A DNA stretch of 32,000 nt from Patescibacteria group bacterium (GTDB lineage Bacteria; Patescibacteriota; UBA1384; XYA2-FULL-43-10): positions 90,001 to 122,000 of the forward strand of contig JBAYVT010000004.1 of NCBI GenBank assembly GCA_041674405.1. Direction: 5' to 3'. Under the pieces are notes generated by a model, which did not search any database, was not told where the DNA came from, and was given only the letters and a program-made list of their open reading frames with translations. Position numbers and translations under genes: made by a program. Position 1 is the first letter of the stretch. Every line of letters begins with the position of its first letter. This document shows positions 5,511 to 21,724 of this stretch, piece by piece.

Positions 5511-6131
5511 CTAATTTGCCGGGGTATTTGGCGGAATAAATGTGTTTGTAGCGTCGTCGTTTGGCGTATCAGAAGCAACTGGCGGAGTTGGTTCTGGCAT
5601 ACTTACTTCCGGTATAGCCGGTTGTTCAGCGGGGGGAAGATTGGGCAGAACGGCATTCTCCTCAGCACCTGTATTTAGAGGAGCCGCAGTATTGTTGCTA
5701 TCTGAAATTACCGGAGCAGGTTCCACTGGGGCCGGTTCAGGCACGGAGGAAGTGGGTGTGGCCGGCACAGATTCCTGCGGCAGGGGTGCTTCGGGGGCCG
5801 GAATGGTTTCAGCAGGAGCGGCCGGAACCGGCTCCTGAACCTCTGGCATAGGAGTTGAATCGGTTCCCACAAACGGCTCTACTGGTTGTGTGCTTTCAGG
5901 GCTATCAGAAGCCATATCAGAAATTTTTGCCATAACTTTAGCACCTTCGGTCCCTGTAAGTTTTTCCAAATGATTTACGCCGACAAGAACAGCAGATGGT
6001 TTGCCGTTTTTGGTGAGAACATACATATTGTCAGTACCCTCAACTTCATCAACAATCTTATTAAACATATCTCGCGCTTCGGTAACGGGAATTATTTTTT
6101 CAATATCAACTTGCAACATCTCCTCCTCCAT
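5511..6131 (-). CDS. Phd/YefM-type antitoxin-like N-terminal domain fused to a ~140-aa Pro/Glu/Ala-rich low-complexity tail
   Basis: 206 aa. 'IIPVTEARDMFNKIVDEVEGTDNMYVLTKNGKPSAVLVGVNHLEKL' fits the Phd/YefM fold pattern. The remainder is PxxP-rich. The stop lies 18 nt before the start of the next minus-strand gene. Confidence 0.75.
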   Translation of the reverse strand: MEEEMLQVDIEKIIPVTEARDMFNKIVDEVEGTDNMYVLTKNGKPSAVLVGVNHLEKLTGTEGAKVMAKISDMASDSPESTQPVEPFVGTDSTPMPEVQEPVPAAPAETIPAPEAPLPQESVPATPTSSVPEPAPVEPAPVISDSNNTAAPLNTGAEENAVLPNLPPAEQPAIPEVSMPEPTPPVASDTPNDDATNTFIPPNTPAN

Positions 6132-6269: not shown

Positions 6270-7007
6270 CTATTTTTGTTTACGATAATAATCCAGGATT
6301 TTAGCACGATAGAAAATTGCCATTGTATCCGTAACCATTTTCTTAATTGCTTTAAAATTAATTCCACTCCCAGCCGCATTGAAGTCTAGTTCTACCGGTG
6401 CCTCAAATATTCTTCGATATCCCAGTTGGTGCGCAATCACCAACATCTCGAGATCAAAAGCGTATTGTTTAACTAAAACTCGCGGCATAATGTCTTTTGC
6501 CACATTCCTTTTTATAAATTTTAGCCCTGCCTGGGTATCGGTAACATTGAGCCCGAAAAGAAAGCGAATCATTTTGTGGTAAATCCAAGAATAAACCCTT
6601 CTTTTTTTAGGGTAATTCACTTTTGATGCCGGATGCCTTTTGGATCCTATCACGAAATCGGCATCGAAAATTTCCAGAAGTTTTACAAATTTATCGAATT
6701 GCGCAGGATCAAAATCTCCGCCGGCATCTGTAAAGGTTACAATGTCACCTTTTGCCATTTTGGTCCCGTATTTTAACGCGTGCCCCTTCCCATGGTTTTT
6801 TTCGTAACTGAATATTCTCACATTCTTGTTCTTAATTTTTTTGGCTTCTTTCAATGTGTTATCAGGTGATCCGTCTACAACTACGACCACCTCGTAGCTA
6901 TATTCAAGTACATCATGCGTATCAACGATGTTTTTTAATGTTTTATAGATATTTTTTTCCTCTTTGTAGGCAGGAATTACAATAGAAAGTTTAGGATTCA
7001 TTTTCAC
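6270..7007 (-). CDS. GT2 glycosyltransferase (polyprenol-phosphate sugar synthase / GtrB-DPM1-like)
   Basis: 'LSIVIPAYKEEKNI', 'VVVVDGSPDNT' and 'FTDAGGDFDP'. The start is GTG at 7007 or ATG at 7001; both overlap the flippase stop at 6991. Confidence 0.9.
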   Translation of the reverse strand: MKMNPKLSIVIPAYKEEKNIYKTLKNIVDTHDVLEYSYEVVVVVDGSPDNTLKEAKKIKNKNVRIFSYEKNHGKGHALKYGTKMAKGDIVTFTDAGGDFDPAQFDKFVKLLEIFDADFVIGSKRHPASKVNYPKKRRVYSWIYHKMIRFLFGLNVTDTQAGLKFIKRNVAKDIMPRVLVKQYAFDLEMLVIAHQLGYRRIFEAPVELDFNAAGSGINFKAIKKMVTDTMAIFYRAKILDYYRKQK

Positions 7008-8274
7008 TCTTAAATATTGCTAGCAGCGCTTCTTTCTTCGTGTAAACATAATACCCCATAAGCAAAGCGAATAAAACACCATTCATCAAGATAAATGTAC
7101 GAATTACCGCAAGAATGCTTGGGTGCCAATACGAAACCATGACAATCTGAGCTACAAGCACGATGAAATAAAGAATTAAGAAAAAGAAGTTTTTGATGAC
7201 CATATAGTAATTTGCCATAAGATTAACCATGGAATAGAACAAAACAAACAAACCAACCTCGGGAAGAAGCGTGTATGCAGAAACATAATCAGGCCCATAT
7301 AAAATTGATACCACCTTGCCTGGCATTATCATATAAATGGCAAGCACAGCAAATGCCCCGATTAGCGTGATTATGATCGAAAAAAGAAAGATCTGATAAT
7401 GTTTGTCACCTTTGACTTTTCGCTCTGATACCATTGGGAACATGACGCTCGCAATCGGTGCTGTTACATAAAGAATAATCTTGGCAACCGTCGAGATGGC
7501 AGCGTATAAGCCAGCGCTTTGCGGATCAAAATAATGTTTAACCAGAATAATATCGATATTGAGCGAAGCAACAAGAAATAAAGACGCAATCAGTGTTGGC
7601 CAAGTGTAGGATATTATTTCCTTTTTATCGAATTTAAAAGAGTGCCCATCATGGAATTTTATTTTATTAAACATTCGCTTTATCGGCAAAAACGAAATGG
7701 AATATGCAATTATGGTGGCTAGTACTATGGCACTGACCGCTCCGTTTAATTTTAAACCTGCCATCACCAGTGCTAAGCCCAATCCAAGCCGGAGGGCCAT
7801 TTCTAAGATGTTGATTGAAGCCAGGCTTCTAAATTTTTGGAGGCCCTGAAAATATCCTTTGTTAATTACAATAAGCAGAGAGAATATTACTCCTGATAAC
7901 ACAATTGAAATTGGCATGAGTGAATTGATAGAAAAGAAATTCGCGATAGGCTTTAGAAACAAAAGGCAAACCAAAAATATTCCAACACCGATCAAAAGTA
8001 GATATTTTGTGAGAAACAAAAACAATTTTTTTAATGCATCAAAATATCGTTCGTTGAATAATTCTCCGGAGTATCTCATCGAGATGGTCAAAATTGCGCC
8101 GCTAGCTACGGCAATAATAGTTTGCAATGACATTAGGGCTGTCATCTCGCCATATTCCGTCGGACCCAAAAGCCGCCCCATCATCATATTGAACAGGTAG
8201 GAAAATAAACTGGCAATCAATGTCCCGATAAAGACAATTGAACTGCTTTTAAGTAATTTTTTGGCTTCATTCAT
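6991..8274 (-). CDS. Wzx-like polysaccharide flippase (MOP superfamily)
   Basis: 427 aa with about 12 hydrophobic spans. The N-terminal 'SSIVFIGTLIASLFSYLFNMMMGRLLGPTEYGE' is typical of polysaccharide biosynthesis/flippase proteins. Confidence 0.8.
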   Translation of the reverse strand: MNEAKKLLKSSSIVFIGTLIASLFSYLFNMMMGRLLGPTEYGEMTALMSLQTIIAVASGAILTISMRYSGELFNERYFDALKKLFLFLTKYLLLIGVGIFLVCLLFLKPIANFFSINSLMPISIVLSGVIFSLLIVINKGYFQGLQKFRSLASINILEMALRLGLGLALVMAGLKLNGAVSAIVLATIIAYSISFLPIKRMFNKIKFHDGHSFKFDKKEIISYTWPTLIASLFLVASLNIDIILVKHYFDPQSAGLYAAISTVAKIILYVTAPIASVMFPMVSERKVKGDKHYQIFLFSIIITLIGAFAVLAIYMIMPGKVVSILYGPDYVSAYTLLPEVGLFVLFYSMVNLMANYYMVIKNFFFLILYFIVLVAQIVMVSYWHPSILAVIRTFILMNGVLFALLMGYYVYTKKEALLAIFKSENES

Positions 8275-8399
8275 ACGGGTTAAACTATAGCAGGTTGATT
8301 AAGCTTCGAAAAGGCTGTTTCAAAATTAGCAAATTATCTGATAACATCGAAATGCTTGACCAACTTTTTGCAATCTCAATTTCAATAATCGAATTATAA

Positions 8400-9425
8400 A
8401 TGCCAGATAAAGAAATAATTAAAACCAGTGTTTTTGCCAGGATCGGATTTTTAGGCAACCCCTCAGATGGATTCGGCGGCAAAACAATTAGCCTGCCCTT
8501 AAAAAATTTTCAAGCCGAGACATTGGTCTGGCAATCACCAACTTTCAAATTGCTCTCAAACAGCGAAGATCAGGACGAATATGAGCATGTCGGCGACATG
8601 GCTCGATATGTCAGGGCAAATGGCTATTATGGTGGAATCAGGCTTGTCAAGGCGGCGATTGTCAGCCTTAAGAAATATTGCGAGCAACATTCGATAGAAT
8701 TTCCTGGTGGCAATTTTACTATCAGTTATCGTTCAAATATTCCGCGCCAGAGCGGTCTTGCCGGTTCGAGTGCAATCATTGTCTCGACTATCAAATCGGT
8801 AATGAAATTCTACAAACTCCCCGAAGCCAGTTTGCCACCGGAAATCCTTGCTAACATTGCAATTGCCGCTGAAACTGAGGAACTGGGCATTACTGCTGGG
8901 CTTCAAGACCGAGTGGTCCAATCTTTTGATGCCCCGGTCTATATGGATTTTGGTCCGGCAGCATTTAAAAGGCATGGAGGGATTTTTGGTGAATACAAAA
9001 AAATAAATCCGAACTTATTTCCTGAAATGTACATAGCCTGGAACGACAAACCTTCTGAATCGGGCAAAATTCACTCGGATGTTAAATCTCGCTTCCTGGA
9101 TGGTGATCAAAAAGTAGTTAATGCAATGGCAAGATTTGCCGAAATTGCCGAATCTGGGATGAGCGCCTTGCTTAAACGCGACCATGCCAAGCTTTGTGAT
9201 CTTGCAGACCAGAATTTTGATCTGCGTAGAAAAATCTACGGTGATTCTGTAATTGGGGCCGACAATCTAGCGATGATTAAATTGGCTAGAAAATTTGGCG
9301 CTGCCGCCAAGTTCCCAGGTTCAGGCGGGGCGATCATCATTATTCCACGAAATAAAGGACAGGCTGATATAATTTTAGAAGAGTTTGCGCGAAGAAAATA
9401 TAACATTGAAAGAGTAGTCGTATGA
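8400..9425 (+). CDS. GHMP-family sugar-1-kinase, glucuronokinase-like
   Basis: GHMP motif II-like 'NIPRQSGLAGSSA' and motif III-like 'FPGSGGA'. 'ARIGFLGNPSDGFGG', 'GYYGGIRL', 'ELGITAGLQDRV' and 'PSESGKIHS' match my recollection of the plant glucuronokinase subfamily. The stop overlaps the galU start (ATGA). Confidence 0.8.
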   Translation: MPDKEIIKTSVFARIGFLGNPSDGFGGKTISLPLKNFQAETLVWQSPTFKLLSNSEDQDEYEHVGDMARYVRANGYYGGIRLVKAAIVSLKKYCEQHSIEFPGGNFTISYRSNIPRQSGLAGSSAIIVSTIKSVMKFYKLPEASLPPEILANIAIAAETEELGITAGLQDRVVQSFDAPVYMDFGPAAFKRHGGIFGEYKKINPNLFPEMYIAWNDKPSESGKIHSDVKSRFLDGDQKVVNAMARFAEIAESGMSALLKRDHAKLCDLADQNFDLRRKIYGDSVIGADNLAMIKLARKFGAAAKFPGSGGAIIIIPRNKGQADIILEEFARRKYNIERVVV

Positions 9426-10309
9426 TGAGAAAGATAACAAAAGCGGTCATTCCGGCGGCTGGTCTTGGTACCCGTTTTTTGCCGGCCACCATTGCGCAAC
9501 CGAAAGAAATGCTGACAATTGTTGACAAGCCAGTGATTCAATTTGTGGTCGAAGAAGCGGTCGAAAGCGGAATTAAAGATATCCTCATTATCACCGGCCG
9601 AAGCAAGAGAGCAATCGAGGACCATTTCGATCCATCGTATGAGCTCGAAGAAATGCTTCAAAGGAAAAACAATGAAGAGCTTCTTTTGACACTTGATCGA
9701 ATTTCAAATCTCGCCAATATCCATTTTATTCGCCAAAGGCGCCAGAGAGGTCTAGCAGATGCAATATATCAAGCCAAAACTTTTATTGGCGACGAGCCAT
9801 TTGCCGTCCTCTTAGGGGATACAATCATTGATTCGAGTGATGAAAAAACCCACAATCTATCAAAAATGGCTTCGCTTTATGAAGAAACAGGGAAATCCGT
9901 AGTTGCTCTCGAGCGAGTTTCGAAGGCACAAATTTCGCGTTATGGAATAGCTGGCGGAAAAATGCTCGACAAACAGGTGATGGAGATTGACGAACTGGTC
10001 GAAAAGCCGGACCTGGTTGATGCTCCGTCGAATCTAGCGATCGCCTCACGCTATATTTTTGCAACTGGCATTTTTAGCCTGGTCGAGAAAACTAAACCCG
10101 GTGTCAATGGGGAGATTCAGATTACCGATAGTATGAAATTTCTCGCCGAAGCGGGAGAAATACTTGGTTATATCATCAGCGGCCGCCGGCATGACATCGG
10201 CAATAAGGTTGATTTCGTCAAAACAAATCTTGATTTTGCCTTAAAGCGCAAAGATACAAAAGCAGAGATCAAAAAATATATTAGAGAAATTTTGAAAGGT
10301 GAAAAATGA
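9422..10309 (+). CDS. galU: UTP--glucose-1-phosphate uridylyltransferase
   Basis: 'KAVIPAAGLGTRFLPATIAQPKEMLTIVDKPVIQFVVEEA' and 'LLGD' are canonical GalU motifs. ATGA overlaps at both ends. Confidence 0.9.
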   Translation: MMRKITKAVIPAAGLGTRFLPATIAQPKEMLTIVDKPVIQFVVEEAVESGIKDILIITGRSKRAIEDHFDPSYELEEMLQRKNNEELLLTLDRISNLANIHFIRQRRQRGLADAIYQAKTFIGDEPFAVLLGDTIIDSSDEKTHNLSKMASLYEETGKSVVALERVSKAQISRYGIAGGKMLDKQVMEIDELVEKPDLVDAPSNLAIASRYIFATGIFSLVEKTKPGVNGEIQITDSMKFLAEAGEILGYIISGRRHDIGNKVDFVKTNLDFALKRKDTKAEIKKYIREILKGEK

Positions 10310-11238
10310 AAACATATCTAATCACCGGTGGCGCTGGCTTTCTTGGGTCCAACCTGGCAATTCGTCTTATTAAGAACGGGCAGAAAGTTATTGTAGTCGA
10401 CGATTTGTTTACTGGCCGATTAAAAAATCTGGCTGAAATCAAAGAAAATCCCAATTTTAGATTTATTAAGCACGACGTCAGAAAACCTCTAAAAATTGAT
10501 GGCAATGTTGATTATGTCTGCCATTTAGCTTGCCCGGCTTCGCCGCCAGTTTATTTGATTGATCCTATACATACCCTTGAAACATCGGCAATCGGCACCC
10601 AGAATATGCTTGAATTTGCACTCTCCAAGGGGGCAAGGTTTTTTTATACTTCTACAAGTGAAATTTATGGCGACCCTTTGGTGCACCCGCAGAAAGAGAG
10701 CTATTTTGGTAATGTAAACCCATATTGCAAGCGCTCCTGCTATGATGAGGGAAAGCGCTATGCAGAGGCCCTTATTTATGAATACCGGCGCGAAAGAGGG
10801 CTAAACACGGGAATCATTCGCATTTTCAATACTTATGGTCCCAAAATGGACCCTGATGATGGTAGGGTAGTTACAAACTTCATCAAACAGGCCCTGCGGG
10901 GCGAAGATATTACCGTGCAGGGCGACGGTAAACAGACGCGTTCTTTTTGTTATGTTGACGATCAAATCGACGGTATGATAAAAATGATAAAATCCAATGA
11001 GGAAGGCCCTATCAACATTGGCAACCCAAATGAGTTTACAATCCTTGAACTTGCAAAAATTGTCATAGATTTGACAAAGACAAACTCAAAAATTGTGTAC
11101 ACCGCTCCAGTTGAATCTGATCCTAAACAGAGAAGGCCGGATATCAAATTAGCCAAGGAAAAACTAAATTGGAAGCCCAAAATCAATCTTCGTGAAGGGA
11201 TCAAAAAAACGATGGAATATCTAAAGGCAGAAATTTGA
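10306..11238 (+). CDS. uxs: UDP-glucuronate decarboxylase (UDP-xylose synthase), extended SDR
   Basis: 'ITGGAGFLGSNL', 'VDDLFTGRLKNL', 'HLACPASPPVY', 'YDEGKRYAE' and 'GDGKQTRSFCYVDD' match the UXS subfamily pattern. Confidence 0.85.
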   Translation: MKTYLITGGAGFLGSNLAIRLIKNGQKVIVVDDLFTGRLKNLAEIKENPNFRFIKHDVRKPLKIDGNVDYVCHLACPASPPVYLIDPIHTLETSAIGTQNMLEFALSKGARFFYTSTSEIYGDPLVHPQKESYFGNVNPYCKRSCYDEGKRYAEALIYEYRRERGLNTGIIRIFNTYGPKMDPDDGRVVTNFIKQALRGEDITVQGDGKQTRSFCYVDDQIDGMIKMIKSNEEGPINIGNPNEFTILELAKIVIDLTKTNSKIVYTAPVESDPKQRRPDIKLAKEKLNWKPKINLREGIKKTMEYLKAEI

Positions 11239-11266
11239 TAATTAATATGATTGCTAAGGAAAGAAA

Positions 11267-12556
11267 ATGAAAATTGTTGTCATTGGTACTGGTTATGTTG
11301 GCTTGGTACAAGGTGTAGCATTGGCAGAATTGGGCAATGAGGTTACCTGCATTGATGTAGACGAGGATAAAATTGCAAAACTCAAAGAGGGAATTTCCCC
11401 AATATACGAGCCGGGAATCGAAGAGCTAATTAAGAAAAATCTAAAACAAGGCCGGATTACTTTCGAAACATCGCTTAAAAGATACTTGAATAAATCCGAT
11501 ATCGTATTTATCGCGGTGGGGACGCCGTCGGACGAAAATGGAAAAGCCGATTTGAAATATATTATCGCTGCAGCGGAAGAAATCGGAAAAAATATCAAGA
11601 AACCTCTTGTTATCGTAAATAAAAGCACAGTGCCGATTGGGACAGGAGAAATGGTAAAAAGTACCATCAAGAAGCACTACAAGGGAAGCTTTGACGTCAT
11701 CTCCAACCCGGAATTTTTAAGAGAAGGTTCGGCAATCGACGACTTTTTTCATCCGGATCGAGTGGTAATAGGGTGCAATGGGGACCGAGAAGCAGCAGAA
11801 AAAGTCGCTGAAGTTTACAAGGTCTTAACTTGCCCAATTGTCATAACGAACCTAGAAACCGCAGAAATGATCAAATATGCCTCAAATTCTTATCTGGCAA
11901 CCCAGATTTCATTCATCAATTCAATTGCTAATATATGCGAAAAAGTCGGTGCCGATGTAGCCGATGTCTCGCGCGGCATGAAACTGGACAAACGAATTGG
12001 CGAGCGGGCATTCCTGAGTGCCGGCATCGGCTACGGGGGATCATGTTTTCCAAAAGATGTAAGCGCAATGGTAGAAATCGCCAAAGAAACCGGAGAGGAC
12101 TTTAGGATATTGGAGGAAGTCGAGGCAGTAAACAAATCCCAAAGGCAAAGATTCGTTAAAAAAATTGTTGAGAAACTAGGCAAATTAAAAGGAAAGAGAA
12201 TCGCGATCTGGGGAGTAGCTTTCAAGGCAAAAACGGATGATATCAGGGAAGCGCCGGCGATTACAATAATGGAAGCATTAATTGATTTGGGTGCAGAAGT
12301 TTTAGCATATGACCCAGTCGCCGTGGAAAATGCGAGTAAAATTATTCCCGATGCAATCTATGTTAATCGACCAACAGACGCTTGCAAGCGTGCAGACGCG
12401 TTGCTTATTGTCACTGATTGGGACGAATTTAAACAAGTAAATCTTGATGAACTTGGCAACTCAATGAAATCAAAAGTCATTTTTGACGGCAGAAATATCT
12501 ATAACCCCGAAGATGCAAAGAAAGCTGGGTTCACATATTTTGGGATAGGTAGATAA
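11267..12556 (+). CDS. ugd: UDP-glucose 6-dehydrogenase
   Basis: 'MKIVVIGTGYVGLV', 'NKSTVPIGTG', 'NPEFLREGSAI' and the catalytic 'GGSCFPKDV'. SD-like aaggaaag precedes the ATG. Confidence 0.9.
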   Translation: MKIVVIGTGYVGLVQGVALAELGNEVTCIDVDEDKIAKLKEGISPIYEPGIEELIKKNLKQGRITFETSLKRYLNKSDIVFIAVGTPSDENGKADLKYIIAAAEEIGKNIKKPLVIVNKSTVPIGTGEMVKSTIKKHYKGSFDVISNPEFLREGSAIDDFFHPDRVVIGCNGDREAAEKVAEVYKVLTCPIVITNLETAEMIKYASNSYLATQISFINSIANICEKVGADVADVSRGMKLDKRIGERAFLSAGIGYGGSCFPKDVSAMVEIAKETGEDFRILEEVEAVNKSQRQRFVKKIVEKLGKLKGKRIAIWGVAFKAKTDDIREAPAITIMEALIDLGAEVLAYDPVAVENASKIIPDAIYVNRPTDACKRADALLIVTDWDEFKQVNLDELGNSMKSKVIFDGRNIYNPEDAKKAGFTYFGIGR

Positions 12557-12589
12557 TAGAAAGAAATATCATTATTTAAGATTAAAATT

Positions 12590-13573
12590 ATGAAAAATCA
12601 GCCCAAGGTTTCCATCATCATTCCTGTTATTGCCGTAAATGATTACATTCGCGAGTCCATCCCTGAGATTCTGAAGTTAGATTGGCCGGATTATGAGATT
12701 TTTATTTTTCCTGATCAACCTGACAAAAAACATAAATGGCCGAAAACCAAAATTATCGCATCGGGCAAAGTCGGGCCGGCAGAGAAACGCGATCTGGCAA
12801 TTAAATATGCCCAAGGCGAGATCATTGCATTTTTAGACGATGATGCATTTCCGAGAGCCGATTGGCTCAAAAAGTCGATCAAATTATTTTCTGACAAAAA
12901 AGTCGGCGCTGTCGGCGGGCCTGCGATGACACCGAAGCATGACGATACCCTACAAAAAGTTTCTGGCGCTGTTTTTGAATCTTATCTTGGCGGTGGCGGA
13001 GCGAGAAACCGCTATTTGCCGATCGGCAAAGAGTGTGAATGTGACGATTGGCCAACAGTGAATCTGCTTGTCCGCAAGGATGTTTTTGCAAAAATAGGTG
13101 GCTTCGATAATACTTACTGGCCAGGGGAAGACACCAAACTTTGCCTTGATATTTTAAGTGCCGGTTACAAAATCATGTATACGCCGGAGGCGGTCGTCTA
13201 CCACCATCGCCGATCCGACCTTGTGAAGCACTTCAAACAGATTGGAAATTATGCCCTGCATCGCGGTTTCTTTGCCAAGATCTATCCGAAAACTTCGCTT
13301 AAACTATTCTATTTCATGCCGAGTATTTTCGATCTATATCTGTTGGCGTTGATAATAATTACCCTCATTCCTCATTCCTCATCTCTTGTAATGATTGCCT
13401 CAATTCCAATTGCGCTATATGCCGTTGGGCTTATTTTGGATGCCCTTGTTATCTCATTTCGTTGGAAAAATCCATTGGTAGGATTAATCACGATACCCAT
13501 GGTCCTCTTCACTCATGTCTGGTACGGCATCCGCTTCGTTTGGGGGCTGATTATTCCAAAACTTGCTAGATAG
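12590..13573 (+). CDS. GT2 glycosyltransferase with C-terminal transmembrane segments
   Basis: 'VSIIIPV', 'IIAFLDDDAFP' and 'WPGEDTKLC', followed by 3-4 hydrophobic spans at the C-terminus. Confidence 0.85.
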   Translation: MKNQPKVSIIIPVIAVNDYIRESIPEILKLDWPDYEIFIFPDQPDKKHKWPKTKIIASGKVGPAEKRDLAIKYAQGEIIAFLDDDAFPRADWLKKSIKLFSDKKVGAVGGPAMTPKHDDTLQKVSGAVFESYLGGGGARNRYLPIGKECECDDWPTVNLLVRKDVFAKIGGFDNTYWPGEDTKLCLDILSAGYKIMYTPEAVVYHHRRSDLVKHFKQIGNYALHRGFFAKIYPKTSLKLFYFMPSIFDLYLLALIIITLIPHSSSLVMIASIPIALYAVGLILDALVISFRWKNPLVGLITIPMVLFTHVWYGIRFVWGLIIPKLAR

Positions 13574-15444: not shown

Positions 15445-17004
15445 ATGCCAGAACTTAAGCGTGTGAGCAAGCCTACCAAGGATCAAAAAGCTAAAAATGC
15501 CAAATTTAAGATCTCAATCTCGTATCCGCCTCTTCCTAGTGAGAAAGGCATCCCTCTTCTTACCCAGAATCGCCAATTTCAATGGTTCAACAACCCAACG
15601 TATATCTATCCGATGGTGCCTTCGTATGCAGCCTCACTTCTGGCCGATCAAGGCTATGACGTGCTCTGGGACGATGCCATTGCCGAGGAGCTCACGCCGG
15701 AATCCTGGCTTCTTAGAATCAAGAAATCCAATCCCAACCTGATAGTGTTTGAATCTAAAACCCCGGTAATTAAGCGACACTGGAAACTTATTGAAGTTAT
15801 GAAAAAAGAGCTTCCCAAGGCGACTATCGCCCTGATCGGCGATCATGTGACTGCGATGCCGGAAGAATCGATGAAAAACTCGAAGGTTGATTATGTTCTT
15901 ACGGGCGGAGATTATGATTTTCTGGCATTAAACCTAGCGAATCATCTAAATCATGGTGAGAAACTCGAGGCAGGGATTTGGTACCGTGAAGGGAAAACCA
16001 TTAAAAATACCGGGCATTTTGAGCTTAATCATGATCTTGACGATCTTCCGATGATCGATCGTGATCTCACCAAATGGCAGCTGTACGCTTACAAGAATGG
16101 TAATTACAAAAGAACACCAGGCACATACACATATGCTGCACGTGACTGCTGGTGGGGCAAATGTGCATTTTGTTCCTGGACGACTCTCTATCCGGGTAAG
16201 GATTATCGCAAACATTCGGCCAGGAGGATGCTCGACGAGATCGGCATCTTGATTGAGAAATATCATGTCAAGGAGATCATGGATGATTCGGGCTCTTTTC
16301 CGATCGGCACATGGCTAACGGAGTTCTGCAATGGCATGATCGAGCGTGGCTACAACAAGAAAATCCGTCTTGATATAAATATGAGGCTAAAGGGGCTTAA
16401 ACAAGAAGATTACGATCTTATGGGCAAGGCCGGGATCAGGTTTATCCTGTACGGACTTGAGTCGGCAAACCAGAATACGCTTGATCGAATCCAGAAAAAT
16501 TTGAAGGTAGAGGAAATCGAAAAAGGCGTTAGAATGGCGAAAAAGGGTGGACTGGAGCCTCATATCACTACCATGATGGGTTATCCGTGGGAAACGCGTG
16601 AAGACGCCGAACGAACTGTGGCTCTTGCGAGACATCTATTCAATAAAGGTTATGTTGACACTCTGCAAGCCACTATAGTGATCCCGTATCCAGGCACGCC
16701 ACTCTATCGCGAATGCAAGGAAAACGGCTGGTTGGCGACTGAGGATTGGGATAATTTCGATCAGCGCATGGCGGTGATGAAATCACCCTTGACCGAGAAA
16801 GATATCAAAGAACTGACCCAAGAGCTATATAAGTCATTCATGACTCCCCGGTTTGTCATGCGAAAGATTGCTTCGGTGCGAAGCTGGTCTGATGTTACTT
16901 TCCTTTTCCGTGCTGCTGGCAAGGTAATCGGCCACCTCATTGACTTCTCTCCCAAGAATAAACAAAATTGCGAGTGCGAGGAAAAGGCAGAACACGAAGC
17001 ATAG
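15445..17004 (+). CDS. B12-binding-domain radical SAM enzyme (class B-like)
   Basis: 519 aa. The N-terminal Rossmann-like part is 'LIVFESKTPV...IALIGDHVTAMPEE...VDYVLTGGDYDF'. The Fe-S motif 'RDCWWGKCAFCSW' is CX4CX2C, verified in the DNA at 16147-16173. 'FILYGLESANQNTLDRIQK' is the radical SAM core. Intermediate GC. Confidence 0.85.
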   Translation: MPELKRVSKPTKDQKAKNAKFKISISYPPLPSEKGIPLLTQNRQFQWFNNPTYIYPMVPSYAASLLADQGYDVLWDDAIAEELTPESWLLRIKKSNPNLIVFESKTPVIKRHWKLIEVMKKELPKATIALIGDHVTAMPEESMKNSKVDYVLTGGDYDFLALNLANHLNHGEKLEAGIWYREGKTIKNTGHFELNHDLDDLPMIDRDLTKWQLYAYKNGNYKRTPGTYTYAARDCWWGKCAFCSWTTLYPGKDYRKHSARRMLDEIGILIEKYHVKEIMDDSGSFPIGTWLTEFCNGMIERGYNKKIRLDINMRLKGLKQEDYDLMGKAGIRFILYGLESANQNTLDRIQKNLKVEEIEKGVRMAKKGGLEPHITTMMGYPWETREDAERTVALARHLFNKGYVDTLQATIVIPYPGTPLYRECKENGWLATEDWDNFDQRMAVMKSPLTEKDIKELTQELYKSFMTPRFVMRKIASVRSWSDVTFLFRAAGKVIGHLIDFSPKNKQNCECEEKAEHEA

Positions 17005-17579: not shown

Positions 17580-18689
17580 ATGATTAATGTATCAAAACCG
17601 GTTATCGAGCAAGACGAGATAGATGTGGTCGTGGAAGTCTTAAAGAGCGGAATGATAGTGCAGGGCCCGAAAACGGCGGAGCTTGAGGAAAAGTTTGCAA
17701 AGTACTGCGGGACTAAGTACGCAGTGGCATTCAATAGCGGCACAGCGGCAATCCATGCTGGCCTATATGCAATGGGGATCGGCGAAGAGGATGAGGTAAT
17801 TACGACCCCTTTTACCTTTGTCGCAACCGCTAATCCGATCCTGATGCAGGGCGCAAAAGTGGTTTTCGCCGATATTTCTGAAGATGATTTTAATCTTGAT
17901 CCGGCCGAAGTTGAAAAGAAAATTACCGATACAACTAAGGCAATTATCCCCGTTGATCTCTACGGTCAAGTTTATGATTATGAAAAAATTTCAAAGATAG
18001 CTGAAAAGCATAGCCTCAAGATTTTAGAAGATGCCTGCCAAGCAGTCGGCGCAGAGCAAAATGATAAGCGGGCAGGTAATTTTGGTGATGTGGCGGCCTT
18101 TTCCCTGTATGCTACAAAAAATATGATGTCCGGTGAAGGTGGGCTTATTACTACCAACGATGAAAAGCTGGCTGAAAAGTGCAAGATGTTCAGGCATCAT
18201 GGCCAATCTGAAACATTGAGGTACGAATACGTTGATTTGGGCTACAATTACCGCCTGACGGATATGGCAGCCGCGATTGCTCTAGTCCAGCTTGGCAAAA
18301 TCGATGAATTCAATAAAAGGCGCAATGCGAATGCAACTAGATTGGAAGAAGGGCTCAAAAATATTAAAGGGCTTATTTTGCCCAAGAGAAAAGAAGGAAA
18401 TTTTCACGTTTACCATCAGTTTACAATCAGAATAACCAAGGATTTTGCATTGTCCCGGGATGAACTCATCGAGGAGATGAAAAACCGCGGAGTAGGGGCC
18501 GGAGTGTATTATCCTAAACCTTTGCACCTGCATTCTCATTTCCAAAAGCTTGGCTACAAAGAGGGTGATTTTCCAATAGCAGAAAAGATGTCGAAAGAAG
18601 TTGTGTCTTTGCCGGTCCATCCGTCATTGGCAAATGAAGAAGTCGAGAAAATTATTAAGGCTATAAAGGATATTGCAAATGGAAACTAG
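17580..18689 (+). CDS. DegT/DnrJ/EryC1/StrS-family PLP-dependent nucleotide-sugar aminotransferase
   Basis: 'FNSGTAAIHAGL', 'DEVITTPFTFVATAN', 'IIPVDLYGQ' and 'SLYATKNMMSGEGGLITTND'. The PLP lysine is retained, so this is an aminotransferase rather than an E1-type dehydrase. Confidence 0.9.
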   Translation: MINVSKPVIEQDEIDVVVEVLKSGMIVQGPKTAELEEKFAKYCGTKYAVAFNSGTAAIHAGLYAMGIGEEDEVITTPFTFVATANPILMQGAKVVFADISEDDFNLDPAEVEKKITDTTKAIIPVDLYGQVYDYEKISKIAEKHSLKILEDACQAVGAEQNDKRAGNFGDVAAFSLYATKNMMSGEGGLITTNDEKLAEKCKMFRHHGQSETLRYEYVDLGYNYRLTDMAAAIALVQLGKIDEFNKRRNANATRLEEGLKNIKGLILPKRKEGNFHVYHQFTIRITKDFALSRDELIEEMKNRGVGAGVYYPKPLHLHSHFQKLGYKEGDFPIAEKMSKEVVSLPVHPSLANEEVEKIIKAIKDIANGN

Positions 18690-18876
18690 GGCAGCTGCTT
18701 GCAAGTATTTAATTTCCGGATGTATCGGGTGCCGAATCTGCATAGAAAATAACCCCAAGATATTTAAGCTAAATAACGAAGGGGAGGCTGAGATAGATTT
18801 GGAAAGGGCAGATAAAAATAGTATCTGTGAGACCGCTAAATTGTGTCCAGTTGGCGCCATTAAAATCATAAATTAG
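18679..18876 (+). CDS. Mini-ferredoxin, single [4Fe-4S]/[3Fe-4S] cluster type
   Basis: 65 aa from the ATG at 18679 (the track start at 18673 is TTG). 'CIGCRIC...PKIFKLNNEGEAEI...LCPVGAIKI' follows the CxxCxxC...CP pattern of Thermotoga/Pyrococcus-type monocluster ferredoxins. It overlaps the aminotransferase 3' end by 11 nt. Confidence 0.7.
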   Translation: METRAAACKYLISGCIGCRICIENNPKIFKLNNEGEAEIDLERADKNSICETAKLCPVGAIKIIN

Positions 18877-18883
18877 GAGGCAA

Positions 18884-19909
18884 ATGCCAAATAAGAAGAA
18901 GCGCAAAGTTGGCTTGATCGGCTGCGGGATGATTTACACCCGCCACATGGAAGCCATTACATCAAATCCTGAAGATTTTGAGCTAGTTGCTCTGTGTGAT
19001 ATAGATGACAAAAAATTAGAAAATCGTGCAACGGAGAATCAAGTTCCCGGATTTACTGACTACAAGAAAATGTTGAAAGATATGAAGGGTAAGATGGATT
19101 TTGTTTCGATTGCTACGCCGAACAGCCTGCATTACGAAATGGCTATCGAAGCTTTATCAAACGGATACGACATCCTAATTGAAAAGCCCATTGATTTTAA
19201 ACACGACAGGGTCCAGGAGATCTCAAAGCTGGCGAAGAAATTAAAAAGGAATGCGTTTGCAGTCCTGCAGGTAAGATATAATCCCACCGTGAATATGGTG
19301 AAAGAAGCCCTGGATAAAGGGTATTTAGGCAATATCAGATCGGTAAGTTTGATTCAGCGTTGGCAGCGCCCGGAAACCTATTTTGATTCTTGGCGGGCTG
19401 ATCTCAAAACAGGTGGACGCACTTTGTACGAAGTAGGAATTCACTACCTAGATATTGTCCAATTGCTCTTTGGTGTGCCTGAAGTAAAAGCTTCTGCTAC
19501 CTTCAACAACAAGCACAAAAATGTAAAATTTGAAGATACGGTCTTTTCAATTTATCAATTTCCGCAAGGCGCGTCTGGTTCTTGCGAGGTGACCATAGCT
19601 TCGGAACCGTCAAATCTTGAGTGTTCGGTCTCGATCATGGGATCCGAGGGATTCATCAAAATCGGAGGGCGTGCCCTCGATGCAATAGACCGGGCAATGT
19701 TCGAAAGCCAAATTTTCGAAAAAAAGTGGGATAATCTTGTCGAAAGATACGGAGAATCATTGGAACCGAATTCTTATGGAACCCATGCTGGTTCTTGTCC
19801 CAACCACCCCACTCTTTATGCGGAAATCGCGAAAGGGAAAGGCATTTCGATAGATGAGGCAATTAATTCTATTAAATTTATCGAGAGAATTTATGGCAAA
19901 GAGGTATAA
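18884..19909 (+). CDS. Gfo/Idh/MocA-family oxidoreductase, WbpB-like (nucleotide-sugar 3-dehydrogenase type)
   Basis: AGGAGG lies 5 nt upstream. 'VGLIGCGMIYTRHMEAI', 'VSIATPNSLHYEMA', 'ILIEKP', 'LQVRYNP', 'SWRADLKTGG', 'VGIHYLD' and the C-terminal 'LYAEIAKGKGISIDEAINSI' parallel my recollection of WbpB. Confidence 0.8.
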   Translation: MPNKKKRKVGLIGCGMIYTRHMEAITSNPEDFELVALCDIDDKKLENRATENQVPGFTDYKKMLKDMKGKMDFVSIATPNSLHYEMAIEALSNGYDILIEKPIDFKHDRVQEISKLAKKLKRNAFAVLQVRYNPTVNMVKEALDKGYLGNIRSVSLIQRWQRPETYFDSWRADLKTGGRTLYEVGIHYLDIVQLLFGVPEVKASATFNNKHKNVKFEDTVFSIYQFPQGASGSCEVTIASEPSNLECSVSIMGSEGFIKIGGRALDAIDRAMFESQIFEKKWDNLVERYGESLEPNSYGTHAGSCPNHPTLYAEIAKGKGISIDEAINSIKFIERIYGKEV

Positions 19910-19918
19910 GGAGCTATA

Positions 19919-20473
19919 ATGGATTATTTTAAACATGAGACTGCCGATGTTTCAGACAAAGCGAAAATCGGCAAGGGCACGAAAATCTGGAATTGGTGCC
20001 AGGTGAGAGAAAATGCCACAATAGGTGAAAATTGCATTATCGGAAAAAATGCATACGTCGATACGGGTGCTATCGTTGGCAACAATGTAAAAATTCAAAA
20101 TAATGCCTCTGTCTATGACGGCGTGACTTTGGAAGACGGCGTTTTTGTCGGGCCTCATGTTTGTTTTACGAATGATAAGATTCCTCGTGCAATAAATGAA
20201 GACGGATCACTAAAAGGCGGCGCTGAAACCGGCGACTGGGAAATTTCCAAAATTCTTGTAAAGCGGGGTGCTTCCATCGGTGCAAACTCTACAATCTTGC
20301 CCGGAGTGACGATCGGAGAATTTGCGATGGTTGGCGCTGGATCAGTCGTGACCAGGAATGTTCCAGACTATACACTGGTACTCGGCAATCCGGCAAGGGC
20401 GTATGGAATTGTCGACAAGTCTGGCAAAATTGTCAGCAAGGAACTTGTCGATGAACCGGCAAGCGTCAATTAA
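19919..20473 (+). CDS. Left-handed beta-helix (hexapeptide) N-acetyltransferase, WbpD/WlbB/QdtC-like
   Basis: 'AKIGKGTKIWNWCQV', 'VKIQNNASVYDGVTLEDGVFVGPHVCFTND', 'RGASIGANSTILPGVTIGEFAMVGAGSVVTRNVPDYTLVLGNPAR'. An aggag SD precedes the ATG. Confidence 0.85.
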   Translation: MDYFKHETADVSDKAKIGKGTKIWNWCQVRENATIGENCIIGKNAYVDTGAIVGNNVKIQNNASVYDGVTLEDGVFVGPHVCFTNDKIPRAINEDGSLKGGAETGDWEISKILVKRGASIGANSTILPGVTIGEFAMVGAGSVVTRNVPDYTLVLGNPARAYGIVDKSGKIVSKELVDEPASVN

Positions 20474-21341: not shown

Positions 21342-21724
21342 AAAAAATCAGACATAATATTCTTGATGGTTGGGCTAATCTTTCCGTTTTTATTCGCAAT
21401 AATCTCGTTGGCTTTATTGTATTGATTGCGTTTATGTTTGTTTTTCTTATGCTTAAAAATTACTTTCCGGTACTACAAAATTACATGCGCATAAGATTGA
21501 TTTATGCCTATGTAGGGATGTTAGCTATCTTGATTCTAAATCTGGAAACGAAATTTTTTCTGAAGCTCTCTATTGCATTTTTAGGGCTTGTTGTGCTTGC
21601 CCTGATATTCAATAATACAAACGCAGCCGATCTTATCTCTACTTACTTTCTAATTACCTTTGCACTAGGAATTGTCGCTTCACCAATTCTCCTTGGCCTA
21701 AAAAATAAATGGCTAGGGGTTTAG
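21338..21724 (+). CDS. Small hypothetical 4-TM membrane protein
   Basis: 128 aa. The GTG start overlaps the GT2 stop (GTGA). Four hydrophobic spans and no recognizable family motif. Confidence 0.55.
   Translation: MKKIRHNILDGWANLSVFIRNNLVGFIVLIAFMFVFLMLKNYFPVLQNYMRIRLIYAYVGMLAILILNLETKFFLKLSIAFLGLVVLALIFNNTNAADLISTYFLITFALGIVASPILLGLKNKWLGV

What the first reader, a model, noticed from the sequence alone, without database searches (positions are those of the whole stretch)
8400..12556. Glucuronokinase-like kinase translationally coupled to GalU and UDP-xylose synthase: possible uronate salvage feeding UDP-GlcA/UDP-Xyl
The GHMP kinase at 8400..9425 carries motifs that I recognise from the glucuronokinase subfamily (EC 2.7.1.43), which is best known from plants. 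They do not look like galacto-, mevalonate- or homoserine-kinase motifs.

Its stop overlaps the galU start (ATGA, 9422-9425). The galU stop overlaps the uxs start (ATGA, 10306-10309), and ugd follows 28 nt later. One coupled unit therefore combines two routes:
- the de novo route: Glc-1-P to UDP-Glc to UDP-GlcA to UDP-Xyl;
- an anomeric sugar kinase.

In plants GlcA-1-P is activated by a promiscuous UDP-sugar pyrophosphorylase, and none is present here. The tight coupling suggests this GalU homolog may accept the kinase product, or that the kinase acts on a different sugar. It also implies xylose and glucuronate in the surface glycan of this organism.
Basis: partly seen in the sequence, partly recalled or inferred. 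Interest (0 to 1): 0.6.

Follow-up and report, generated by a model that had tools for sequence, protein, structure and literature searches.

The report
Glucuronate-salvage kinase feeding UDP-xylose operon
A tiny-genome bacterium carries a kinase of the plant/fish glucuronic-acid-kinase family, joined stop-to-start to a special copy of the UDP-sugar-making enzyme GalU and to UDP-xylose synthase, and relatives with the same genes but no other way to make UDP-glucuronic acid suggest that this trio turns scavenged glucuronic acid into building blocks for a surface sugar coat.

Summary
Five intact co-directional genes lie at 8400-13573: GHMP kinase, GalU, UXS, UGD and a GT2. The ATGA overlaps at 9422-9425 and 10306-10309 and the 28-nt gap are as described.

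The kinase belongs to the glucuronokinase family. It is 44% identical (E 9e-94) to the kinase domain of carp "glucuronokinase with putative uridyl pyrophosphorylase". It nests with eukaryotic glucuronokinases in a well-supported clade. It fails every other GHMP subfamily cut-off.

The genome is 0.93 Mb and looks like a candidate-phyla-radiation bacterium. It has two GalU genes, and the coupled one is an operon-specific paralog.

- Kinase-GalU adjacency recurs in 47 of 80 loci across many phyla, in both gene orders.
- In 150 sampled genomes of the Dyadobacter phylum, neither gene was found.
- Three of four relatives with kinase-GalU-UXS (94-100% complete) have no nucleotide-sugar dehydrogenase, so UXS can only be fed through kinase plus GalU.
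- One relative (G010) has neither kinase nor UGD and does not fit.

Earlier reports of this scan found the same pair in other genomes. New here are its embedding in a UXS operon and the relatives that lack UGD.

The parts
6270..7007 (-). GT2a, a 245-aa family-2 glycosyltransferase of the polyprenyl-phosphate-sugar synthase type (weak matches to PgfS, AglJ, PpgS, ArnC). In relatives it lies directly upstream of the kinase on the same strand; here it is inverted.
   Evidence: Pfam PF00535, 100 bits. NCBIfam hits all below cut-off. Synteny in L099-L102, L139, L140.
6991..8274 (-). Wzx/MOP-type polysaccharide flippase-like membrane protein (427 aa). It is part of the conserved block and is inverted together with GT2a in this window.
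   Evidence: PF01943 and PF13440. 47-57% identical orthologues sit next to GT2a and the kinase in relatives.
8275..8399 (.). 125-nt AT-rich divergent intergenic region between the flippase and the kinase. It presumably holds the promoter; no consensus site stood out.
   Evidence: Sequence. The promoter/terminator scan was at chance level.
8400..9425 (+). Glucuronokinase-family GHMP kinase (341 aa). It has the N-terminal GFLGNPSDGFGGKT motif, motif II IPRQSGLAGSSAI and motif III KFPGSGGAI.
9422..10309 (+). GalU2, an operon-specific GalU-type UTP-sugar-1-phosphate uridylyltransferase (295 aa). Thr134 replaces the acidic glucose-contacting residue, and the loop at 106-109 is basic.
10306..11238 (+). 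UDP-glucuronate decarboxylase (UXS, 310 aa).
11267..12556 (+). UDP-glucose 6-dehydrogenase (UGD, 429 aa). It is a variable member of the operon, absent from most related operons.
12590..13573 (+). GT2b, a 327-aa family-2 glycosyltransferase. It is the conserved last gene of the unit and the likely user of UDP-Xyl or UDP-GlcA.
   Evidence: 65-79% identical orthologues follow UXS or UGD in relatives.

Best explanation
The unit at 8400-13573 makes UDP-glucuronate and UDP-xylose for a surface glycan, by two routes that meet at UDP-glucuronate.

Salvage route (inferred):
1. The kinase (8400-9425) phosphorylates free D-glucuronate at C1 with ATP.
2. The translationally coupled GalU paralog GalU2 (9422-10309) joins glucuronate-1-phosphate to UTP to give UDP-glucuronate.
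3. UXS (10306-11238) decarboxylates UDP-glucuronate to UDP-xylose.

De novo route: GalU2, or the housekeeping GalU1 elsewhere in the genome, makes UDP-glucose from glucose-1-phosphate, and UGD (11267-12556) oxidises it. A phosphoglucomutase is present.

The products are used by GT2b and by the neighbouring GT2a and flippase. They probably pass through a polyprenyl-phosphate sugar that the two AftD-like GT-C enzymes further along the window could use.

Shown here: gene structure and coupling, family membership of all four enzymes, conservation of the kinase-GalU pair, and the existence of relatives with kinase-GalU2-UXS but no UGD.

Inferred: the sugar specificity of the kinase, acceptance of glucuronate-1-phosphate by GalU2, and the fate of the products.
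For: Kinase family:
- 44% identity over 313 residues (E 9e-94) to the kinase domain of Carassius 'glucuronokinase with putative uridyl pyrophosphorylase'. Going by its NCBI name, that protein is the counterpart of zebrafish DrGKUP, which is glucuronate-specific (PMC3938481).
- With a distant GHMP outgroup, the window clade sits in a group with 100% SH-aLRT support that also holds fish, fungal and algal glucuronokinases.
- A peptide from purified lily glucuronokinase (PMC2823444) has its best match in the six-frame translation of the whole genome at kinase residues 15-28, scoring 53 against 36 for the next best.
- JGI names many homologues glucuronokinase.
- All other GHMP models score far below their cut-offs.

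Pairing with GalU:
- 47 of 80 loci have GalU directly next to the kinase on the same strand. In 37 the order is kinase then GalU. In 10 it is GalU-like then kinase, mostly overlapping.
- In 150 evenly sampled genomes of the Dyadobacter phylum, no kinase match (E <= 1e-40) and no GalU-type match above the model's cut-off were found (one 151-bit hit, cut-off 326.8). Nearly all loci from that phylum that do carry the kinase have GalU beside it.
- Eukaryotic glucuronokinases are fused to a PF00483 nucleotidyltransferase domain.

Link to UDP-glucuronate:
- In the window's order the block kinase-GalU2-UXS-GT2b is conserved.
- G012, G015 and G023 (94, 99 and 100% complete) have no TIGR03026 dehydrogenase anywhere, while the control rang in 14 of 14 genomes.
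- Kinase-less variants G014, G013, G042 and G046 carry UGD.
- No UxaC was found in the five kinase-bearing genomes, so a catabolic role is unlikely.

GalU2 features:
- It is a separate paralog from the housekeeping GalU1, at 46% identity.
- Every UDP-glucose contact residue listed for YngB (PMC7961091) is kept except Asp134, which is Thr here.
- That position is Thr or Ser in all 47 kinase-linked GalUs from other phyla and all 13 GalU2 sequences. It is Glu, Gln or Asp in 24 of 24 housekeeping GalU1 sequences, and Asp in the Bacillus and Burkholderia structures.
Against: - No biochemical test of any bacterial member was found in the held literature.
- The pyrophosphorylase activity of the zebrafish fusion was never shown in vitro, so even the eukaryotic precedent for step 2 is incomplete.
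- GalU2 orthologues also occur with UGD and without the kinase (G013, G014, G042, G046). GalU2 must therefore also use glucose-1-phosphate, and its Thr134 is not specific to kinase-bearing operons.
- G010 (94% complete) has GalU2-UXS with neither kinase nor UGD.
- The source of free glucuronate is unknown: no transporter or glucuronidase was identified, and the MIOX search was uninformative.
- Which glucose hydroxyl the residue at position 134 contacts was not checked on coordinates.
Confidence: 0.65

Rival explanations
1. The pair is a salvage module for a different sugar. The kinase makes, for example, xylose-, galactose-, galacturonate- or glucose-1-phosphate, and a promiscuous GalU2 turns that into the UDP-sugar directly.
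For: A bacterial GalU-type uridylyltransferase from Solitalea canadensis accepts xylose-1-phosphate and, with a promiscuous 'galactokinase', gives a two-step UDP-xylose salvage (PMC11267548). I could not establish which kinase family that 'galactokinase' belongs to. Substrate specificity in GHMP kinases can shift within a family. GalU2 clearly also serves glucose-1-phosphate in operons without the kinase.
Against: Both characterised members of this kinase family, from Arabidopsis and zebrafish, accept only glucuronate, and the window protein is 44% identical to the carp counterpart of the zebrafish enzyme. If xylose were activated directly, UXS would have no substrate in the three genomes without UGD, yet UXS is the most tightly conserved partner after GalU2.
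Confidence: 0.18
2. GalU2 is an ordinary glucose-1-phosphate enzyme that supplies UDP-glucose to the operon's glycosyltransferases and UGD. The kinase product is activated by another nucleotidyltransferase, or used otherwise, and the adjacency reflects only co-regulation.
For: GalU2 passes the GalU equivalog cut-off and occurs without the kinase next to UGD. The genome has three other PF00483 enzymes, including an RmlA/ManC-like one paired with a second GHMP kinase.
Against: The 4-nt overlap of kinase and GalU is conserved within the clade. The pair recurs in both gene orders across many phyla. In the Dyadobacter phylum, GalU-type genes were found only where the kinase is. Genomes without UGD would still lack UDP-glucuronate for UXS.
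Confidence: 0.12
3. The apparent lack of UGD in relatives is an assembly artefact, and the kinase is a minor or decaying accessory gene without a role in the pathway.
For: All the relatives are draft metagenome-assembled genomes of 20-60 contigs. G010 shows that UXS can appear without either supplier in a 94% complete bin.
Against: In G012, L137, L139 and L140 the stretch from UXS to GT2b is contiguous and has no UGD. Completeness of the three genomes is 94-100%. The kinase ORF is intact, with all family-invariant residues, in eight clade members.
Confidence: 0.05

Closest known systems
Plant myo-inositol oxygenase / salvage route to UDP-glucuronate: glucuronokinase (AtGlcAK, At3g01640, EC 2.7.1.43) plus UDP-sugar pyrophosphorylase USP (PMC2823444)
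   Same: Same kinase family, and the same two-step logic: glucuronate to glucuronate-1-phosphate to UDP-glucuronate, running beside the UGD route and feeding UXS.
   Different: The second enzyme here is a short bacterial GalU-type (PF00483) protein, not the eukaryote-type UDPGP-family USP. No MIOX was detected. The genes form one translationally coupled operon together with UXS.
Zebrafish DrGKUP, glucuronokinase fused to a putative uridyl pyrophosphorylase (PMC3938481); the carp counterpart is P0126
   Same: The kinase domain is 44% identical, and a PF00483-type nucleotidyltransferase is physically tied to the kinase.
   Different: Fusion rather than separate overlapping genes. The fish N-terminal domain shows no detectable pairwise similarity to the window's GalU2, so the partnership arose separately. 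Its pyrophosphorylase activity was not demonstrated.
Bacteroides fragilis FKP (L-fucokinase / GDP-fucose pyrophosphorylase) and similar kinase-pyrophosphorylase salvage enzymes
   Same: A GHMP anomeric kinase combined with a nucleotidyltransferase salvages a free sugar for surface glycans.
   Different: Different kinase subfamily (the NCBIfam fucokinase model did not match the window kinase), different nucleotide (GDP), and a single polypeptide.
Solitalea canadensis ScGalK/ScGPUT xylose salvage (Green Chem 2022, cited in PMC11267548)
   Same: A bacterial GalU-type uridylyltransferase with relaxed sugar-1-phosphate specificity works with an anomeric kinase to make a UDP-pentose in two steps.
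   Different: [quoted passage not shown] No UXS is involved. Whether ScGalK belongs to this kinase family could not be checked.
Canonical bacterial de novo pathway GalU - Ugd - Uxs
   Same: GalU, UGD and UXS orthologues are all present in the window, and a phosphoglucomutase is encoded elsewhere in the genome.
   Different: An extra anomeric kinase heads the operon, and UGD is dispensable in most related operons.

Membership tests
GHMP kinase superfamily | Pfam GHMP_kinases_N and GHMP_kinases_C domains above the gathering score | tested here: met
   PF00288 44.9 bits (cut-off 22.3); PF08544 26.5 bits (cut-off 21).
GHMP kinase superfamily | Motif II (P-x-x-x-G-L-x-S-S-A) and motif III (G-S-G-G) phosphate-binding loops, and the GHMP fold | tested here: met
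   IPRQSGLAGSSAI at 114-126 and KFPGSGGAI at 304-312, invariant in the family alignment. The AlphaFold model has pLDDT 89.4 and pTM 0.89. The nearest solved folds are galactokinase, mevalonate kinase and heptokinase WcbL, at TM 0.70-0.76 and only 13-18% identity.
Glucuronokinase (EC 2.7.1.43; AtGlcAK / DrGKUP family) | Full-length sequence similarity to a protein named as a characterised member's counterpart, well above that to any other GHMP subfamily | tested here: met
   44% identity, E 9e-94, to the carp GKUP kinase domain. Against that: 24% over a partial alignment to the genome's other GHMP kinase, and E about 1e-8 to the best PDB entries.
Glucuronokinase (EC 2.7.1.43; AtGlcAK / DrGKUP family) | Groups with eukaryotic glucuronokinases in a tree rooted on another GHMP kinase | tested here: met
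   A group with 100% SH-aLRT support holds the window clade together with fish, fungal, ichthyosporean and algal sequences. It is a quick tree with one long outgroup branch.
Glucuronokinase (EC 2.7.1.43; AtGlcAK / DrGKUP family) | Match to peptides sequenced from purified lily glucuronokinase | tested here: inconclusive
   Peptide 1 matches residues 15-28 (9 of 14 identical), the best match in the six-frame translation of the whole genome. Peptide 2 does not stand out from chance.
Glucuronokinase (EC 2.7.1.43; AtGlcAK / DrGKUP family) | ATP-dependent phosphorylation of D-glucuronate at C1 with high specificity | not testable with these tools
   Needs an enzyme assay.
   HddA 42.7 against 600; mevalonate kinase 41.8 against 163; galactokinase 22.5 against 443.
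GalU (UTP-glucose-1-phosphate uridylyltransferase, TIGR01099) | Score above the equivalog cut-off | tested here: met
   353.4 against 326.8.
GalU (UTP-glucose-1-phosphate uridylyltransferase, TIGR01099) | All residues that contact UDP-glucose in the YngB / H. pylori GalU structures | tested here: not met
   Gln105, Gly110, Lys28, Glu29, Asp133, Gly175, Glu194, Lys195 and Ile207 (window numbering) are kept. The position matching YngB Asp134 is Thr134.
GalU (UTP-glucose-1-phosphate uridylyltransferase, TIGR01099) | Substrate range (glucose-1-phosphate against glucuronate-1-phosphate) | not testable with these tools
   Needs an enzyme assay.
UDP-glucuronate decarboxylase (UXS) | Full-length similarity to human UXS1, with the catalytic Thr/Glu, Tyr-x-x-x-Lys and Arg motifs | tested here: met
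   344 bits, E 5.5e-102; the next family (epimerase) scores 161 bits. STSE, YDEGK and DGRVV are aligned.
UDP-glucose 6-dehydrogenase | Nucleotide-sugar dehydrogenase model above cut-off; best equivalog | tested here: met
   TIGR03026 480.6 against 189.8. The best equivalog is TuaD at 533, below its 700 cut-off, so the glucose specificity is likely but not certified.
Plant/protist-type UDP-sugar pyrophosphorylase (UDPGP, PF01704) | Presence of a PF01704 gene in the genome | tested here: inconclusive
   No match, but the control search rang in none of the 14 genomes.

The most novel reading that the evidence does not exclude
In a lineage of ultrasmall-genome bacteria, UDP-glucuronate and UDP-xylose for the cell surface are made only from scavenged glucuronate, because UGD has been lost. 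The enzyme doing the second step is a distinct functional class of GalU (Thr or Ser in place of the acidic glucose-contacting residue) that would be the first bacterial UDP-glucuronate pyrophosphorylase. The same class would then explain the kinase-GalU pair in Bacteroidota, Planctomycetota, Acidobacteriota and other phyla.
Probability: 0.45. Interest if true: 0.72.

Novelty: new variant of a known kind. Interest (0 to 1): 0.62.

Why it matters
UDP-glucuronate is the gateway to xylose, arabinose, galacturonate and 4-amino-arabinose in bacterial surface glycans. In bacteria, as far as I know, it is described only as the product of UGD.

A kinase-plus-GalU bypass would be a second entry point, so far known only from plants and some lower animals. 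It would assign a function to a gene pair found in hundreds of genomes that NCBI labels 'hypothetical' or 'mevalonate kinase'. It would also give a short, NAD-free two-enzyme route to UDP-glucuronate for enzymatic glycan synthesis.

For ultrasmall symbiotic bacteria it would point to a concrete nutrient, free glucuronate, that ties them to their hosts or surroundings.

Tried and rejected
- PDB sequence search for a solved glucuronokinase found none. The best hits are heptose kinases at E about 1e-8, and the fold search gives only generic GHMP folds.
- The second lily peptide does not discriminate.
- The PF01704 (USP) and PF05153 (MIOX) searches returned nothing, but their controls were silent, so they say nothing.
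- The promoter/terminator scan was at chance level.
- I first read the kinase-linked GalU of large genomes as their housekeeping copy, because it is their only GalU. I dropped this after finding no GalU-type match above cut-off in 150 other genomes of the Dyadobacter phylum.
- I tested whether the fish pyrophosphorylase domain is a GalU relative, which would make the fusion a direct descendant of the bacterial pair. There is no pairwise similarity; they share only the Pfam family.
- Neighbours of the kinase in loci without GalU (Armatimonadota, Poribacteria, Bryobacterales) are heterogeneous. Two Poribacteria loci have a sulfatase upstream, and there is no alternative pyrophosphorylase.
- I could not identify which gene the Solitalea 'ScGalK' is. 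The primary paper is not held, and no supplements are held.
- Cluster look-ups gave no organism names for the closest relatives. The assignment to the candidate phyla radiation rests only on genome sizes.

Full report
**1. Observation**

The ORF list and direct reads confirm five intact co-directional genes:
- 8400-9425 (341 aa)
- 9422-10309 (295 aa)
- 10306-11238 (310 aa)
- 11267-12556 (429 aa)
- 12590-13573 (327 aa)

ATGA stop/start overlaps lie at 9422-9425 and 10306-10309. A 28-nt spacer containing AAGGAAAG precedes the fourth gene, and a 33-nt spacer precedes the fifth.

Profile searches identify them as follows:
- a GHMP kinase;
- GalU (TIGR01099, 353.4 bits against a cut-off of 326.8);
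- an extended SDR;
- a nucleotide-sugar dehydrogenase (TIGR03026, 480.6 against 189.8; best equivalog TuaD/UGD);
- a GT2.

The SDR is UDP-glucuronate decarboxylase. It matches human UXS1 over its full length (344 bits, E 5.5e-102), the next family scores 161 bits, and the STSE, YDEGK and DGRVV motifs align.

Upstream and divergent lie a Wzx-type flippase (6991-8274, minus strand) and a second GT2 of the polyprenyl-phosphate-sugar synthase type (6270-7007, minus strand).

**2. The genome**

The window is contig C4:90001-122000 of a 929-kb assembly in 7 contigs, 98.7% complete, with a bacterial 16S rRNA gene. Its relatives all have genomes of 0.5-1.5 Mb. That fits a candidate-phyla-radiation (Patescibacteria-like) organism, but no tool gave a name.

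**3. What the kinase is**

- No NCBIfam GHMP subfamily comes near its cut-off: HddA 42.7 against 600, mevalonate kinase 41.8 against 163, galactokinase 22.5 against 443.
- The best PDB sequence hits are heptose kinases at E about 1e-8.
- The word-indexed protein search returned over 7000 homologues. Many JGI entries among them are named glucuronokinase.
- The exhaustive representative search found 446 clusters at E <= 1e-30. Many are 600-690-aa proteins with the kinase in the C-terminal half.
- One of those, P0126 (619 aa), is NCBI's 'glucuronokinase with putative uridyl pyrophosphorylase' of Carassius carassius. Others come from Mucoromycota fungi, an ichthyosporean, Chromera and algae.
- The window kinase is 44% identical to the carp kinase domain over 313 residues (E 9e-94). 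Going by its NCBI name, the carp protein is the counterpart of zebrafish DrGKUP, which was shown to be a glucuronate-specific kinase (PMC3938481).
- In a tree rooted on the genome's other GHMP kinase, the window clade falls in a group with 100% SH-aLRT support, together with all seven eukaryotic sequences and with Armatimonadota, Poribacteria and Aerophobetes sequences.
- A peptide sequenced from purified lily glucuronokinase (PMC2823444) has its best match in the six-frame translation of the whole genome at kinase residues 15-28. A second peptide is not informative.
- The 2010 paper had already listed homologues in Dyadobacter, Solibacter and Verrucomicrobium. The Dyadobacter orthologue is 45% identical to the window protein.
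- The AlphaFold model is confident (pLDDT 89.4) and has a generic GHMP fold with no close solved relative.

I therefore file the protein in the glucuronokinase family. Its substrate is inferred, not shown.

**4. The GalU partner**

The genome has two proteins that pass the GalU model: the coupled one, and a stand-alone one at C4:37078-37953 (336.5 bits). They are 46% identical.

Among 60 relatives, most have a single GalU. The second, higher-scoring copy ('GalU2') always sits in this glycan operon.

In a GalU tree:
- the 13 GalU2 sequences form a clade (99% support);
- that clade is sister (88%) to the kinase-linked GalUs of Bacteroidota, Verrucomicrobiota and Myxococcota;
- it is separate from the 24 housekeeping GalU1 sequences of the same lineage (95%).

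**5. Conservation of the kinase-GalU pair**

Eighty kinase loci from the species-representative genome collection were examined. They come from Bacteroidota, Verrucomicrobiota, Planctomycetota, Acidobacteriota, Armatimonadota, Poribacteria, Fibrobacterota, Chloroflexota, Bathyarchaeota and others.
- 37 have GalU immediately downstream on the same strand.
- 10 have a more divergent GalU-like gene immediately upstream, mostly overlapping the kinase start.
- 33 have none, and at least five of those are cut off by a contig end.

In five large genomes the linked GalU is the only GalU. I first took this to mean it was the housekeeping copy. A sample of 150 genomes from the Dyadobacter phylum then showed no kinase match and no GalU-type match above cut-off; the one hit scored 151 bits against a cut-off of 326.8. 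So in that phylum the two genes appear and disappear together, as a two-gene accessory module.

The eukaryotic fusions join the same kinase to a PF00483 nucleotidyltransferase domain. That domain is not specifically GalU-like. The association of kinase and nucleotidyltransferase therefore seems to have arisen more than once.

**6. The link to UDP-glucuronate**

Within the window's phylum the kinase is rare. It was found in 1 of 400 sampled genomes and in 4 of 60 close relatives, all of the same order.

In those four genomes and in three metagenome contigs the order is flippase, GT2a, kinase, GalU2, UXS, then UGD or not, then GT2b. The flippase-GT2a segment is co-directional in most of them; in the window and in L137/L138 it is inverted. 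The kinase/GalU overlap is 4 nt in the three metagenome contigs.

UGD is in the operon only in the window and in G009.

Genome-wide searches with the nucleotide-sugar dehydrogenase model found nothing in G012 (94% complete), G015 (99%) or G023 (100%). The control rang in 14 of 14 reference genomes. These organisms keep a bona fide UXS directly after kinase-GalU2, but they have no known way to make its substrate except glucuronate to glucuronate-1-phosphate to UDP-glucuronate.

Operon variants without the kinase carry UGD:
- G014: GalU2-UXS-UGD;
- G013, G042, G046: UGD-GalU2-GT2b.

The exception is G010 (94% complete), which has GalU2-UXS-GT2b with neither kinase nor UGD.

None of the five kinase-bearing genomes has uronate isomerase, so glucuronate is not being catabolised by the usual route.

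**7. GalU2 residues**

I mapped the UDP-glucose contacts listed for B. subtilis YngB, which were defined by overlay on H. pylori GalU (PMC7961091), onto the alignment. All are conserved except the one matching YngB Asp134, a glucose contact, which is Thr134 in the window.

The residue at this position in the groups examined:

| Group | Residue |
|---|---|
| GalU2 (13 of 13) | Thr |
| Downstream-type linked GalUs (37) | Thr in 36, Ser in 1 |
| Upstream-type linked GalUs (10 of 10) | Ser |
| Housekeeping GalU1 (24 of 24) | Glu, Gln or Asp |
| YngB and Burkholderia structures | Asp |

Removing a negative charge next to the sugar fits acceptance of a carboxylated sugar. I did not verify on coordinates which hydroxyl it faces. 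Operons without the kinase have the Thr as well.

Within the GalU2 clade, position 109 is Arg or Lys in all 8 kinase-linked members and Leu in all 5 kinase-less members. This rests on few independent events.

**8. Mechanism and rivals**

The best reading (confidence about 0.65) is a glucuronate salvage arm, kinase then GalU2, that meets the UGD arm at UDP-glucuronate. It feeds UXS, and then GT2b and the GT2a-flippase pair. The products would serve a surface glycan that may be finished by the two AftD-like GT-C enzymes at 21713-26045.

Rivals:
- another sugar is salvaged, with the Solitalea xylose precedent in mind;
- GalU2 is strictly a glucose-1-phosphate enzyme;
- the absence of UGD is an assembly artefact.

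Each is weakened by the persistence of UXS in genomes without UGD and by the cross-phylum pairing. Only enzyme assays can exclude them.

**9. Novelty**

The held literature contains no biochemical study of a bacterial glucuronokinase or of a GalU acting on glucuronate-1-phosphate.

Earlier reports of this scan described the same kinase-GalU pair in Spirosoma, the Planctomycetes-Verrucomicrobia group, Bacteroidales, Acidobacteriota and marine archaea, and reached the same reading. I re-tested the pair's conservation and the kinase's family membership independently.

Added here:
- the ultrasmall-genome version, where the pair is built into a UXS operon;
- the relatives without UGD;
- the joint distribution of kinase and GalU in the Dyadobacter phylum;
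- the position-134 signature.

I rate it a new variant of a known kind.

Noticed in passing
L082:6326-8157 (genome contig C2:39325-41156, minus strand; outside the window): A second candidate salvage pair in the same genome. An RmlA/ManC-like nucleotidyltransferase (283 aa) overlaps by 25 nt a second GHMP kinase (334 aa). The kinase's best match is HddA at 97.7 bits, far below the 600 cut-off, with a weak fucokinase match. Its sugar is unknown.
   Followed up: partly
window 6270-8274: The flippase-GT2a segment is inverted relative to the kinase here and in the related contigs L137/L138. In the other related genomes and contigs it is co-directional, with GT2a ending a few bases before the kinase start.
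   Followed up: partly
window 9422-10309, residues 24 and 106-113: All 13 GalU2 sequences have Ile where 70 of the 71 other GalUs compared have the Lys of the LPATK motif (the 71st has a gap there). Twelve of the 13 have GLADA instead of GLG(H/D)A. The loop before it is RQ(K/R)RQ(R/K) in kinase-linked members, but position 109 is Leu in kinase-less ones.
   Followed up: partly
window 15445-17004: A B12-binding radical SAM protein (519 aa) follows the operon in nearly every related genome and contig examined (69-77% identical). A conserved 250-290-aa protein with no family match lies on the opposite strand between the two. It may belong to the same glycan system.
   Followed up: no
window 17580-20473: A DegT-type aminotransferase, a GFO/IDH/MocA oxidoreductase and a hexapeptide acyltransferase lie in a row. 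This resembles, from my own knowledge, the WbpB/WbpE/WbpD enzymes that make 2,3-diacetamido uronic acid sugars. If so, it is a second pathway here that uses a uronic acid nucleotide sugar.
   Followed up: no
window 21713-26045 (minus strand): Two tandem large membrane proteins (716 and 744 aa) with AftD-like GT-C domains. These enzymes typically use polyprenyl-phosphate sugar donors, which fits the GT2a-plus-flippase pair upstream.
   Followed up: no
window 5511-6131 (minus strand): A 206-aa protein whose first 60 residues are a Phd/YefM antitoxin domain, much longer than ordinary antitoxins. A similar gene (181 aa) sits near the operon in the related contig L139.
   Followed up: no
L004:8184-9572 and L007:1576-2901: In two related loci (L004 from Poribacteria; L007 an unnamed bacterium that groups with it in the kinase tree) the gene just upstream of the glucuronokinase homologue is a sulfatase of the N-sulfoglucosamine sulfohydrolase type. 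This hints at a link to breakdown of sulfated, uronate-containing polysaccharides.
   Followed up: no
P0197 and P0236 (representative search hits): Some proteins of 850-890 aa fuse a complete MoeA molybdopterin-biosynthesis module to a glucuronokinase-family domain. P0178 fuses seven CCCH zinc fingers to one. The origin and meaning of these fusions are unknown.
   Followed up: no
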